NCBI RefSeq assembly: GCF_051903065.1
Contig: NZ_CP178438.1
DNA: 64,000 bases
From: Escherichia coli
GTDB taxonomy: Bacteria; Pseudomonadota; Gammaproteobacteria; Enterobacterales; Enterobacteriaceae
Strand: one strand, 5' to 3'
Within the stretch, counting starts at the first letter, position 1. Each line of letters starts with the position of its first letter. Position numbers: made by a program. Positions 21,001 to 24,000 of the stretch are shown here, piece after piece.

Positions 21001-24000
21001 TTTGCTCCGTTGTGCCATTATTCAGCAGATTTGGCGGCAATAGCGTGCTGTCGATAACTTCACCTGAAGGAACAACGTTAACCAGATATTCCATCAAATT
21101 GCTTAACTCGCGCAGGTTTCCGGGCCAACGATGCTTACGCAATATTTCGACGACATCGGGAGCAATGCCAGGATAAACCGATCCCAGACGACGGGTATGC
21201 AGATGTAAAAAGTAATGCACCAGTAGTTCAATATCTTCCTGACGTTCACGCAGCGGTGGCAGAGTTATCGGGATAACATTAAGTCGGTAGAAGAGATCTT
21301 CGCGGAATTTACCTTCGGCAATGAACTGGGCCAAATTCTGGTTAGTTGCAGAAATGATGCGAATGTCGACTTGTATTGGGCTACTGGCACCAATCGGCAG
21401 AATTTCACGTGCCTCAATAGCGCGCAGTAATTTAGCCTGCAACATTAATGGCATATCACCTATTTCATCGAGAAACAGCGTGCCCGTATTCGCCGCCTGA
21501 ATCAACCCTGTTTTACCGTTGGCAGAAGCGCCAGTAAATGCGCCTTTAACATAACCGAACAGTTCGCTCTCCAGAAGCTGCTCCGGAATCGCGGCACAGT
21601 TGATAGCAATAAAGGGTTTATTCCGTCTTCCGCTCAACTTATGGATTGCACGGGCGACAACTTCTTTACCCGTGCCGCTTTCACCAACCACCATAACGCT
21701 GGATGGGCTGGGTGCAATACGGCTAATGAGTCGTTTTAATTGCCGCATAACACGGCACTCGCCAACCAATTGTTCAATATGCGGTTCATCAGGTGCATTT
21801 GCTACAGAAAAACTGGTATGCGATTGGTGAAACGCCATTAAAAATAATTGTCGGCCCTGAATGTTATGCAATTGACCAATGATTAATTCACTTTTATCGT
21901 CCCACGAAACAATATGCTGCATATGTCCATGGGTAAAATTACTCTCAAATGTTAATGGTCTGAAACGGATAGGTTTCCCAATAATATTATTTTGCACAAC
22001 ACCAAGTGTTTTTAAGGCAGTCTGATTAACAAACTGAACCCGATTTTCGTCATCTACAACTAATACGCCCTGATCCATATTATCGATCATGGTCGCGAAT
22101 ATTTTACTGATGTTATCTCCTGGCCCCTGATCCTCCAGAAGTTTCGAAACAAAAATGGTGGATATATGACGAACATAATCAGAAAATTCGCGTAAATTAT
22201 CACTGATATGCTCTTGTTGCTCGTGGGTAACGGCAATCAAACTTATCACCCCAACACAACGATCCTGTAAAATGACAGGCGTACCCAGAAATGCTTTTTC
22301 GCGGCAATTTTCTTTACTATCGCAACCTTCGCAAAGGGGATCGAAGCGAGACTGTGTCACAACTTTTTCAGTTTTCGTTTCCAGGACGTGGCGGAGCAGG
22401 CGTGAGTTGCCGCTCAACTGGCGACCAAGAAACTTCCCATACGCGCCAGTTCCGGCGACGCGACACAAGTTTTCATCAACGATCTCAACCTCAAGCTGCA
22501 AAACGCTGGCAAGCATTCTGGCAAAACGCTGAATTGTCGGTTGAATTTGCATCAATACTGACTGCGTAGTAGCAAGCTCCATAGCTTTACCTTCCAGACT
22601 TACTTAAAAGTCGATCATTGAAGACGTTGATGGTTCACAGATCATGATGATATTAACTCAGGCGAAATTGGCTTTGATAAAAACATAAGATTTTTATCAC
22701 TTTCTAATGAAATTATGGAAGAGATATCACATTTCTATATCAATATGAGAATTACGGCGGTGAGTTTATCAAACTGACGAGGGATAGCCTGCCCCTTTAT
22801 CTTATTTCTGATACTTAGCAGCAAATAAATAACGCAATAAAAAAAGCCAAACGTTTTCGTATTTTACAAACAACCGGAAGCTAGCATCAATTTGTGATCA
22901 ACCCCACACATTATCCGTCAAATTAGTCTTTTGCAGCCCCGTGGATAATTCTGGCACACTTATTGTTAGTCCCAGGTATAGCTGTGAAAACACCAATCAC
23001 TTTGGCAAGTCACAGTGAAATAAACCACTTTGCCTGTCATTCCACTACCGGGACTTTATGATGAAAACTGTTAATGAGCTGATTAAGGATATCAATTCGC
23101 TGACCTCTCACCTTCACGAGAAAGATTTTTTGTTAACGTGGGAACAGACGCCAGATGAACTGAAACAAGTACTGGACGTTGCCGCAGCATTAAAAGCACT
23201 GCGTGCTGAAAACATCTCAACCAAAGTCTTTAATAGTGGATTAGGTATTTCCGTATTCCGCGACAACTCCACCCGTACCCGCTTCTCTTATGCTTCCGCG
23301 CTTAACCTGCTCGGCCTTGCACAGCAAGATCTCGACGAAGGCAAATCACAAATCGCTCACGGCGAAACCGTGCGTGAAACCGCCAATATGATCTCCTTCT
23401 GCGCCGACGCTATTGGTATTCGCGACGATATGTATCTGGGCGCAGGCAACGCCTATATGCGTGAAGTTGGCGCTGCACTTGATGACGGTTACAAGCAGGG
23501 TGTGCTGCCGCAACGTCCGGCTTTAGTGAACCTGCAATGTGATATTGACCACCCGACTCAGTCAATGGCTGACCTGGCATGGTTACGTGAACACTTTGGT
23601 TCATTGGAAAACCTGAAAGGTAAAAAAATCGCCATGACCTGGGCCTACTCCCCAAGCTATGGCAAACCGCTCTCTGTACCACAAGGCATCATCGGTCTGA
23701 TGACTCGCTTCGGTATGGATGTCACCCTGGCCCATCCGGAAGGCTACGACCTGATCCCGGATGTCGTTGAAGTCGCTAAAAACAATGCTAAAGCCTCCGG
23801 CGGTAGCTTCCGTCAGGTCACCAGCATGGAAGAAGCCTTCAAAGACGCAGACATCGTTTATCCGAAGTCATGGGCACCTTACAAAGTGATGGAAGAGCGT
23901 ACTGAATTGCTGCGTGCGAACGATCACGAAGGCTTAAAAGCACTGGAAAAACAGTGTCTGGCACAGAACGCGCAACACAAAGACTGGCATTGTACTGAAG

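What the first reader, a model, noticed from the sequence alone, without database searches (positions are those of the whole stretch)
22893..22967. Candidate sigma54 promoter with an upstream CRP-like site in the ygeV-ygeW divergent region
TGGCAC-N5-TTGT (22952-22966) matches the sigma54 -24/-12 consensus except for C to T at -12 and lies about 90 bp upstream of ygeW. The divergently transcribed ygeV encodes a sigma54-dependent activator with a GAFTGA motif. A TGTGA-N6-CCACA motif (22893-22908) resembling a CRP site lies about 45 bp further upstream. Together these suggest the ygeW-ygeX-ygeY-hyuA-yqeA operon is driven by a YgeV-activated sigma54 promoter with catabolite input.
Basis: partly seen in the sequence, partly recalled or inferred. 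Interest (0 to 1): 0.4.

Follow-up and report, generated by a model that had tools for sequence, protein, structure and literature searches.

The report
Known sigma54 promoter of ygeW
The two motifs are real and are the already published sigma-54 promoter and CRP site in front of the E. coli uric-acid-degradation gene ygeW, so the reading is correct but not new.

Summary
Both motifs are at the stated coordinates in the E. coli ygeV<>ygeW spacer. Both are already published.

- **Sigma54 site.** CTGGCACACTTATTGTT (22951-22967) is sigma54 ChIP-seq site OS30 of Bonocora 2015. It also lies under an RpoN-holoenzyme genomic SELEX peak (Shimada 2021).
- **CRP box.** TGTGATCAACCCCACA (22893-22908) is the CRP box listed for ygeV<>ygeW in Shimada 2011.
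- **My checks.** A matrix built from 41 other ChIP-validated sites ranks the ygeW 17-mer first among all positions of the window. The motif, including the unusual T at -12, is kept 81-96 bp before ygeW in seven enterobacterial genomes. The CRP half-sites are kept at a fixed distance.
- **Added piece.** I found a conserved enhancer, ATATCAATATGAGAA (22737-22751). It matches the TTATCA-N3-TGATAA upstream activator sequence (UAS) predicted for the clostridial YgeV homologue DioR. It recurs upstream of the xdhA, ygfK and ygfT sigma54 sites.

Three points remain untested: YgeV dependence at ygeW, the direction of the CRP effect, and the extent of the operon. Interest is low because the finding is a rediscovery. 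The enhancer link is a modest new lead.

The parts
22951..22967 (+). sigma54 (-24/-12) promoter element CTGGCACACTTATTGTT. GG is at 22953-54. The -12 dinucleotide is GT (22965-66) rather than GC.
   Evidence: Sequence. Weight-matrix score 15.9, the top hit of the window. Identical to ChIP-seq site OS30 of Bonocora 2015. Conserved in 9 of 10 orthologous spacers. Mean identity 0.89 against 0.48 for the whole spacer. Invariant in 5 diverse E. coli strains.
22893..22908 (.). CRP box TGTGATCAACCCCACA, centred 50.5 bp upstream of the first base of the sigma54 17-mer (about -77.5 from the inferred start site).
   Evidence: Listed as the CRP box for ygeV<>ygeW in the Shimada 2011 SELEX-chip table. A CRP-like box centred at -50.5/-51.5 is kept in 7 of 10 spacers. 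Half-site identity is 0.75 against 0.44 for the N6 spacer and 0.32-0.35 for the flanks.
22735..22753 (.). Candidate YgeV enhancer (UAS1), CTATATCAATATGAGAATT. It is a TTATCA-N3-TGATAA-type palindrome centred 207 bp upstream of the sigma54 17-mer.
   Evidence: Consensus search. A matrix trained only on clostridial DioR UAS sites ranks it 2nd in the window. Present at -207 to -211 in 7 enterobacterial spacers. Invariant within E. coli. Inferred function; no binding data.
22725..22731 (.). Conserved TATCACA half-site just upstream of UAS1.
   Evidence: Alignment. Mean identity 0.95.
22765..22780 (.). Second, weaker enhancer element TTTATCAAACTGACGA. Its TTTATCA half is almost invariant.
   Evidence: Mean identity of TTTATCA is 0.98. 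It does not score with the clostridial matrix.
22978..23057 (+). Inferred 5' untranslated leader of ygeW. The start site is placed about 12 nt after the -12 element and has not been mapped.
   Evidence: Inference from sigma54 promoter geometry. Bonocora lists a distance of 80 to the gene. No Rfam family matches. Folding is no better than shuffles, z = -0.36.
20804..22582 (-). ygeV (also named isrR), a divergently transcribed sigma54 enhancer-binding protein.
23058..24248 (+). [quoted passage not shown]
24306..29189 (+). Downstream genes ygeX/dpaL, ygeY, hyuA and yqeA/arcC, all on the same strand with gaps of about 50 bp.
   Evidence: The iModulon list includes ygeX, ygeY and hyuA.
26789..26808 (+). 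GC-rich hairpin followed by TTTTT between ygeY and hyuA. It could be a partial terminator or a stabiliser.
   Evidence: A hairpin is kept at this position in other genera with a different sequence and no T-run.
29196..29221 (+). Terminator-like hairpin after yqeA, the likely end of the transcription unit.
17030..17046 (+). xdhA sigma54 site, a sister promoter. A YgeV-type UAS lies at 16896-16914.
32403..32603 (+). ygfK control region: UAS 32403-32421 (core TTATCATAATGATAA), CRP boxes 32509-32524 and 32539-32554, sigma54 site 32587-32603.
47594..47791 (-). ygfT control region: sigma54 site 47594-47610, CRP box 47644-47659, UAS 47773-47791. The UAS 15-mer core is identical to the ygeW one.

Best explanation
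The segment is the core of the ygeW control region, a sigma54-dependent promoter of the anaerobic purine/urate-degradation cluster of E. coli.

Proposed mechanism:
1. RNA polymerase with sigma54 sits on CTGGCACACTTATTGTT (22951-22967) as a closed complex (binding is shown in the literature).
2. YgeV, encoded divergently, binds a conserved enhancer about 205-235 bp upstream, at 22725-22780. The core palindrome is ATATCAATATGAGAA (inferred).
3. On a purine/urate-related signal, YgeV loops over and uses ATP to open the promoter. Transcription starts near 22978 and reads ygeW, ygeX, ygeY and probably hyuA and yqeA (inferred).
4. cAMP-CRP binds TGTGATCAACCCCACA (22893-22908), which lies between the enhancer and the promoter (in vitro binding is shown in the literature). 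There it couples expression to carbon status. The most likely route is bending the loop DNA, or touching the polymerase alpha subunit, so as to favour activation. The direction of this effect is inferred only from glucose repression of urate degradation.
For: Published:
- ChIP-seq site OS30 is this exact 17-mer, assigned to ygeW.
- An RpoN-holoenzyme genomic SELEX peak lies in the ygeV/ygeW spacer.
- CRP SELEX-chip lists this exact 16-mer for ygeV<>ygeW.
- The YgeV iModulon contains xdhABC, ygeWXY, hyuA, ygfK and ygfT, and ygfT expression is reduced in a ygeV mutant.
- Urate degradation is glucose-repressed in wild type but not when the native spacer is replaced.

My tests:
- The sigma54 17-mer is the best weight-matrix hit in the window.
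- The sigma54 motif is kept 81-96 bp before ygeW in seven other enterobacterial spacers and 145 bp in Photobacterium.
- Block conservation: sigma54 0.89, UAS1 0.81, CRP half-sites 0.75, against 0.32-0.35 for the DNA between them.
- Five diverse E. coli strains show no polymorphism in the sigma54 17-mer, UAS1 or the CRP half-sites.
- A matrix trained only on predicted clostridial DioR enhancers puts its top three window hits upstream of the ygfT, ygeW and ygfK sigma54 sites, and its 9th upstream of xdhA.
- The HTH recognition helix LGIGIATLYRKI is invariant between YgeV and Firmicute homologues.
- YgeV has the AAA+ domain with GAFTGA and a Fis-type HTH.
Against: - ChIP enrichment is low (fold-above-threshold score 3), and Bonocora et al. 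warn that binding sites need not be promoters.
- The -12 element is GT, not GC.
- I found no mapped start site and no rpoN, ygeV or crp mutant data for ygeW itself.
- In the well-studied cases (glnAp2, dctA, Pu, nif) CRP-cAMP inhibits sigma54 promoters. A positive role here is therefore not the default, and the glucose effect could be indirect.
- No IHF consensus lies between enhancer and promoter.
- The enhancer is far upstream, about -234 from the inferred start.
- Intercistronic hairpins, one with a T-run after ygeY, leave the extent of the operon open.
Confidence: 0.8

Rival explanations
1. The sigma54 site is occupied but is a poised, essentially silent binding site. On this reading ygeW is transcribed mainly from some other promoter.
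For: The ChIP fold-above-threshold score is low (3), and the authors caution that sites may never give productive transcription. The -12 element is non-consensus. The YgeV iModulon is rarely active in 1035 RNA-seq samples.
Against: The motif keeps its position and orientation across genera whose YgeV is only 59-69% identical. A conserved enhancer sits at a near-constant distance. No sigma70-like promoter above chance lies upstream of ygeW. The same -12 GT occurs in the confirmed pspA and pspG promoters.
Confidence: 0.1
2. The CRP box does not help the sigma54 promoter. It either represses it, as at glnAp2, dctA and Pu, or mainly drives the divergent ygeV gene, so catabolite control is exerted through the amount of activator.
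For: CRP-cAMP is inhibitory at all well-characterised sigma54 promoters summarised in PMC3900584. In the prp system CRP activates the activator gene's own promoter. A sigma70-like -35/-10 pair on the minus strand (22890 to 22861) abuts the box.
Against: That sigma70-like match is at chance level (2 found, 1.8 expected) and lies in unconserved DNA. It would place CRP near -46, which is not a standard activating position. The box is about 320 bp from the ygeV start codon. Its distance to the -24 element is what is conserved. CRP boxes also sit 40-70 bp upstream of the ygfK and ygfT sigma54 sites. Glucose represses rather than stimulates urate degradation.
Confidence: 0.3
3. A different enhancer-binding protein, for example NtrC under nitrogen limitation, activates the promoter rather than YgeV.
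For: The nearby yqeC-internal sigma54 promoter for yqeB is induced by nitrogen limitation. Purines are nitrogen sources. No direct YgeV-ygeW experiment was found.
Against: ygeV is adjacent and divergent in every orthologous locus. The conserved enhancer matches the motif predicted for the YgeV-like clostridial regulator, not the NtrC TGCACC-N5-GGTGCA type (the NtrC consensus is from my own knowledge). The iModulon and the ygeV-mutant effect on ygfT point to YgeV.
Confidence: 0.07

Closest known systems
prpR<>prpBCDE control region of E. coli/Salmonella
   Same: The sigma54 activator gene is transcribed divergently from a catabolic operon with a sigma54 promoter. CRP acts in the spacer and makes the system subject to catabolite repression (review PMC5566544 citing Lee et al. 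2005 and Palacios & Escalante-Semerena 2000).
   Different: prpBCDE needs IHF. Here no IHF consensus lies between enhancer and promoter, and CRP occupies that position instead. The activator, inducer and enhancer motif all differ. The CRP effect at ygeW has not been measured.
CRP-cAMP action at the sigma54 promoters glnAp2, dctA and Pu
   Same: A CRP dimer upstream of a sigma54 closed complex, between or near the enhancer and the -24 element. Its effect depends on DNA geometry and alpha-CTD contact (PMC3900584, PMC1865078).
   Different: Those effects are inhibitory. Physiology here (glucose represses urate degradation) suggests the opposite sign. The ygeW box is a SELEX-recovered site that is conserved in position.
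Clostridial DioR regulon (Nie et al. 2019, PMC6615313)
   Same: A sigma54 activator predicted to control ygeW-ygfK-ssnA-ygeY, dpaL, yqeB, pbuX and xdhABC. Enhancers of the form ATTTATCATAATGATAAGG lie 100-250 bp upstream of TTGGCAT-N5-TTGCT promoters. The E. coli ygfK enhancer CTTTATCATAATGATAAGG differs from a C. botulinum site at one base.
   Different: Different phylum. Clostridial promoters have a consensus -12 GC and no CRP. In E. coli there is one strong palindrome per promoter rather than 2-3. The DioR-YgeV equivalence is my inference, not a published statement.
pspA and pspG sigma54 promoters
   Same: Confirmed E. coli sigma54 promoters with TTGT(A) instead of TTGC at -12 (Table 1 of PMC4591121).
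   Different: They are activated by PspF in a different regulon. They show much higher ChIP signal (fold-above-threshold 21 and 15, against 3).

Membership tests
sigma54 (RpoN)-dependent -24/-12 promoter | TGGCAC at -24 and TTGC at -12 with exact spacing, scoring like validated sites | tested here: met
   TGGCAC-N5-TTGT has canonical spacing. The weight-matrix score of 15.9 equals the median of 41 ChIP-validated sites and is the best in the window. One deviation: -12 is GT rather than GC, as in pspA and pspG.
sigma54 (RpoN)-dependent -24/-12 promoter | Occupancy by sigma54 holoenzyme | not testable with these tools
   Reported by others: ChIP-seq site OS30 with this exact 17-mer and a genomic SELEX peak in the spacer.
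sigma54 (RpoN)-dependent -24/-12 promoter | A cognate enhancer-binding ATPase with a GAFTGA loop | tested here: met
   ygeV is adjacent and divergent. Its product contains GAFTGA, Sigma54_activat at E = 8e-71, and HTH_8.
sigma54 (RpoN)-dependent -24/-12 promoter | Upstream activator sequence about 100-250 bp upstream | tested here: met
   A conserved palindrome lies 207 bp upstream of the 17-mer. Binding by YgeV has not been shown.
sigma54 (RpoN)-dependent -24/-12 promoter | rpoN- and activator-dependent transcription starting about 12 nt after -12 | not testable with these tools
   No start-site or mutant data for ygeW were found in the searchable literature.
CRP-cAMP binding site | Match to TGTGA-N6-TCACA | tested here: met
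   9 of 10 core positions match. Alone this is not above chance (4 found against 2.2 expected). Half-sites are conserved while the spacer is not.
CRP-cAMP binding site | Binding by purified CRP-cAMP | not testable with these tools
   Reported by others: the SELEX-chip table lists TGTGATCAACCCCACA for ygeV<>ygeW.
CRP-cAMP binding site | Class I or class II position relative to a sigma70 promoter | tested here: not met
   The only sigma70-like pairs in the spacer are at chance level, and none puts the box at -41.5, -61.5 or -72.5. The box is instead fixed relative to the sigma54 -24 element.
CRP-cAMP binding site | crp/cAMP-dependent change of target transcription | not testable with these tools
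   Indirect only: glucose represses urate degradation, and this is relieved by replacing the native spacer.
YgeV/DioR-type enhancer (TTATCA-N3-TGATAA) | Match to the clostridial DioR UAS matrix, located upstream of a sigma54 promoter of the purine/urate cluster | tested here: met
   Window ranks 1, 2, 3 and 9 fall 125-207 bp upstream of the four ChIP sites. Four hits score at least 14, against 0.73 expected.
YgeV/DioR-type enhancer (TTATCA-N3-TGATAA) | The regulator is an orthologue of DioR with the same DNA-reading helix | tested here: inconclusive
   Firmicute homologues are 36-39% identical over the full length and share an invariant LGIGIATLYRKI helix. They have UAS clusters next to sigma54 motifs. 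The named DioR proteins themselves were not compared.
IHF-assisted sigma54 promoter (prpB/Pu type) | IHF site between enhancer and promoter | tested here: not met
   No WATCAANNNNTTR match with up to 1 mismatch occurs between 21647 and 23072. An AT-rich tract at 22820-22870 is present but not conserved.

The most novel reading that the evidence does not exclude
The ygeW promoter is one of at least four promoters (xdhA, ygeW, ygfK, ygfT) built on one plan: a YgeV enhancer, then a CRP box, then a sigma54 core. Three claims follow.

- YgeV reads the same TTATCA-N3-TGATAA enhancer as the clostridial regulator DioR. If so, the regulator, its DNA site and the sigma54 promoters are shared with the selenium-dependent urate-degradation genes between Firmicutes and Enterobacteria.
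- In the enterobacterial version CRP, not IHF, occupies the loop. It sits in about the same helical phase at ygeW, ygfK and ygfT.
- CRP there acts as a co-activator, which is the opposite of its role at glnAp2, dctA and Pu.
Probability: 0.35. Interest if true: 0.4.

Novelty: already known. Interest (0 to 1): 0.12.

Why it matters
The ygeW cluster encodes the anaerobic urate-degradation pathway. That pathway is now being studied, and engineered in probiotic E. coli, for lowering uric acid in gout models. Knowing its native switch explains why E. coli degrades urate only in some media. It also shows which DNA to keep or replace when engineering the cluster.

The promoter and the CRP box are already published, so confirming them adds little. 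The useful increment is a concrete, testable YgeV binding site. It is shared by four promoters and by clostridial homologues, and YgeV's DNA target has not been defined in the papers I could search.

Tried and rejected
- **Genome scan for YgeV relatives.** It yielded only one true orthologue (L003). I obtained the others through an N-terminal protein search plus contig look-ups.
- **Literature search with 'UacR'.** It returned only clinical papers on the urine albumin/creatinine ratio.
- **Iwadate & Kato 2019.** The paper could not be opened by DOI. I cite it only through papers that quote it.
- **IHF consensus.** None lies between enhancer and promoter.
- **Rfam.** No RNA family matches in 22500-23200.
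- **Leader fold.** It is no better than shuffles, so I dropped a riboswitch or attenuator in the 5' UTR.
- **Sigma70-type promoter scan of the spacer.** It is at chance level, so I rejected a classical class I/II role for the CRP box.
- **Weaker TATCA elements (22641-22659, 22764-22782).** They do not score with the clostridial matrix. I treat them only as conserved half-sites.
- **Locus L086.** It lacks ygeW and has no sigma54 motif. It looks like a deletion derivative and I left it out of the alignment.
- **L085.** It has an extra C in the CRP box, but that assembly is full of frameshifts, so I did not interpret it.
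Full report
**Where we are.** The window is Escherichia coli, not strain K-12. An 801-bp stretch (22400-23200) spanning the ygeV-ygeW spacer is 100% identical to several RefSeq genomes, and short parts of the spacer are identical to O157:H7 strains. The annotated genes are xdhABC, ygeV (minus strand, 20804-22582), then ygeW, ygeX/dpaL, ygeY, hyuA and yqeA/arcC on the plus strand from 23058. The finding lies in the 475-bp ygeV<>ygeW spacer.

**Checking the observation.**
- The motifs are exactly where stated. TGGCAC is at 22952-57, then 5 nt, then TTGT at 22963-66. 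TGTGA is at 22893-97, then 6 nt, then CCACA at 22904-08.
- YgeV contains GAFTGA. It has PAS, sigma54-interaction AAA+, lid and Fis-type HTH domains, and no receiver domain.
- Judged by simple consensus, neither motif beats chance. There are 2 sigma54-like matches against 3.35 expected, and 4 CRP-like matches against 2.2 expected.
- A position weight matrix is more discriminating. I built one from the other 41 intergenic-sense sigma54 ChIP-seq sites in Table 1 of Bonocora et al. 2015.
- It scores the ygeW 17-mer CTGGCACACTTATTGTT at 15.9. That is the median of the training set and the single best of about 128,000 positions in the window.

**What is already published.**
- The sigma54 element is site OS30 of Bonocora et al. 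(PLoS Genet 2015, PMC4591121). Its peak centre is 3004190, its fold-above-threshold score is 3, its motif is CTGGCACACTTATTGTT on the plus strand, its downstream gene is ygeW, and the distance is 80. It carries no EcoCyc mark.
- Shimada et al. 2021 (PMC8743547) found an RpoN-holoenzyme genomic SELEX peak in the ygeV/ygeW spacer.
- Lamoureux et al. 2023 (PMC10602906) describe a YgeV iModulon, a set of genes co-expressed across RNA-seq samples. They state that sigma54 promoters had been identified upstream of xdhABC and ygeWXY. [quoted passage not shown]
- The CRP element is also published. The SELEX-chip table of Shimada et al. 2011 (PMC3105977, supplement) lists TGTGATCAACCCCACA for ygeV<>ygeW. 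It also lists TGTGAGTTCATTCACA and TGTGAGGCGGCTCGAA for ygfJ>ygfK, and TGCGACTGAGTTCAAA for ygfTS<>ygfU.
- A 2025 paper (PMC12507026) replaced 'the native Crp-binding site' of this spacer with constitutive promoters. It showed that urate degradation is glucose-repressed in the wild type but not in the engineered strain.
- Liu et al. also noted that nutrient conditions, possibly glucose, govern urate use by E. coli.
- The finding is therefore a correct rediscovery.

**Comparative test.**
- I collected orthologous ygeV<>ygeW spacers from Enterobacter sp. Bisph1, Raoultella, Klebsiella grimontii, a Citrobacter MAG, two metagenomic enterobacteria, a divergent Escherichia-like assembly and Photobacterium.
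- The sigma54 motif is the best matrix hit in 9 of 10 spacers. It lies 81-96 bp before the ygeW ATG in the enterobacteria and 145 bp before it in Photobacterium.
- The tenth locus has lost ygeW altogether.
- The unusual T at -12 is kept in seven spacers, including E. coli. One spacer has consensus TTGC, and Photobacterium has TTGA.
- In a seven-sequence alignment the spacer averages 0.48 identity to E. coli.
- Against that background the sigma54 17-mer scores 0.89. The CRP half-sites score 0.75, their N6 spacer 0.44, and the DNA on either side 0.32-0.35.
- A CRP-like box is centred 50.5-51.5 bp upstream of the 17-mer in 7 of the 10 spacers.
- Among five diverse E. coli strains the roughly 35 variable columns avoid the sigma54 17-mer and the CRP half-sites. 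One strain has two changes inside the CRP N6 spacer.

**The missing piece: the enhancer.**
- The alignment shows a further conserved block at 22725-22780: TATCACA, then TATCAATATGAGAAT, then TTTATCA.
- The pattern TTATCA-N3-TGATAA with up to 2 mismatches occurs 12 times in the window against 3.4 expected. None of 100 shuffles reached 12.
- Five of those copies lie 125-235 bp upstream of the four sigma54 ChIP sites of this cluster. They include a perfect copy before ygfK and an identical 15-mer before ygeW and ygfT.
- Independently, Nie et al. 2019 (PMC6615313) predicted a clostridial activator, DioR. Its predicted regulon is ygeW-ygfK-ssnA-ygeY, dpaL, yqeB, pbuX and xdhABC, with enhancers such as ATTTATCATAATGATAAGG.
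- A matrix built only from 17 of those clostridial sites gives these top window hits: 47773-47791 (ygfT), 22735-22753 (ygeW), 32403-32421 (ygfK) and 31013-31031 (inside yqeC). Rank 9 is 16896-16914 (xdhA).
- By my own arithmetic, four of the nine positions scoring at least 12 fall in the roughly 1% of the window that lies 100-260 bp upstream of the four sigma54 sites. The binomial probability is about 1e-6.
- The enhancer sits 207-211 bp upstream of the 17-mer in seven enterobacterial spacers.
- YgeV-like proteins from a Clostridium MAG and from Sedimentibacter are 36-39% identical over their full length. They share an invariant LGIGIATLYRKI recognition helix with YgeV. They are flanked by enhancer clusters next to sigma54 motifs.
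- No paper in the searchable library links DioR to YgeV.
- I infer that this palindrome is the YgeV binding site. Binding itself has not been tested.

**Mechanism.**
- Shown by others: sigma54 holoenzyme occupies the 17-mer, and CRP-cAMP binds the box in vitro.
- Inferred: YgeV bound at about -205 to -235 loops to the closed complex and opens it. Transcription then starts near 22978.
- Inferred: CRP, placed between enhancer and promoter where IHF sits in other sigma54 systems, shapes the loop or contacts the alpha subunit. No IHF consensus is present here.
- The CRP boxes of ygfK, ygfT and ygeW lie 40.5, 41.5, 50.5 and 70.5 bp upstream of their 17-mers. All are within about 2.5 bp of one helical phase. 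That is suggestive but weak, with a rough chance of about 0.05 by my estimate.
- The sign of the CRP effect is open. CRP is inhibitory at glnAp2, dctA, Pu and nif promoters but activating at prpBCDE. Glucose repression of urate degradation favours activation, though it could be indirect.

**Operon extent.**
- The five genes are co-directional with gaps of about 50 bp and a strong terminator-like hairpin after yqeA, at 29196-29221.
- GC-rich hairpins sit after ygeW (24255-24276) and ygeY (26789-26808). In E. coli the latter is followed by T5.
- Other genera keep hairpins at the same places, with different sequences and no T-run. These look more like intercistronic stabilisers or partial attenuators than full terminators.
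- The iModulon list includes hyuA but not yqeA.

**Verdict.** Both elements are already in the literature, so novelty is 'already known' and interest is low. The enhancer assignment and the shared three-part promoter plan are a modest, testable addition.

Noticed in passing
window 31013-31031 (inside yqeC); sigma54 promoter at 31256-31272, minus strand: A perfect YgeV/DioR-type palindrome, TTCTCACATTGAGAA, ranks 4th in the window with the clostridial matrix. It lies inside yqeC, about 230 bp downstream of the experimentally validated yqeC-internal sigma54 promoter for yqeB. It could be a downstream enhancer or unrelated.
   Followed up: partly
window 22735-22753 versus 22951-22967, and loci L003, L082, L083, L084, L085, L089: The enhancer-to-promoter distance is nearly constant (207-211 bp) in seven spacers. 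The intervening DNA is only about 35% identical and carries indels, which suggests a constraint on loop length or phase.
   Followed up: partly
window 24255-24276, 25520-25541 and 26789-26808; orthologous gaps in L003, L082-L084, L087, L089: Each intercistronic gap of ygeW-ygeX-ygeY-hyuA carries a GC-rich stem-loop. The stem-loop is kept across genera through different sequences. Only the E. coli ygeY-hyuA one is followed by a T-run that overlaps the hyuA ribosome-binding site.
   Followed up: partly
YgeV residues 84-93 (window about 22304-22333, minus strand); alignment A1: The uncharacterised N-terminal sensor region has a C-x2-C-x5-C motif (C84, C87, C93). It is kept in the Enterobacter, Clostridium and Sedimentibacter homologues, hinting at a metal or redox cofactor. 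YgeV has no receiver domain, although one paper calls it an orphan response regulator.
   Followed up: no
window 32509-32524 and 32539-32554: The ygfK control region has a perfect CRP core, TGTGAGTTCATTCACA, and a second box 30 bp downstream. Both lie between the perfect YgeV-type palindrome (32405-32419) and the sigma54 site (32587-32603). Both are listed by Shimada 2011.
   Followed up: yes
window 22648-22656: A conserved block (A)TGATAYTA lies about 70 bp before the ygeV start codon. On the minus strand it reads TAATAT, which is like a -10 element. It could be the ygeV promoter or a further YgeV half-site. In Enterobacter sp. Bisph1 it scores 15.3 with the enhancer matrix.
   Followed up: partly
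L003, L082, L083, L084, L087, just downstream of the sigma54 motif (alignment): Klebsiella, Raoultella, Enterobacter and relatives carry about 17 extra bases just after the -12 element, including the palindrome CAGCGCTG. E. coli and the Citrobacter MAG lack them. E. coli instead has an 11-bp insertion later in the leader.
   Followed up: no
L086 (Logan SRR29156549 contig), 7699-8001: This is a YgeV-like locus (65% identity) in which ygeW, the spacer promoter and the 5' part of ygeV are missing. ygeX is the first gene and no sigma54 motif is present, so it is probably a deletion derivative.
   Followed up: partly
window 47594-47610, minus strand: The ygfT sigma54 motif in this strain is TATGCCCATTTATTGCA. 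That is one base different from the K-12 sequence in Bonocora's table (TATGCCCGTTTATTGCA). Its -24 element is poor (TGCC rather than GGCA).
   Followed up: no
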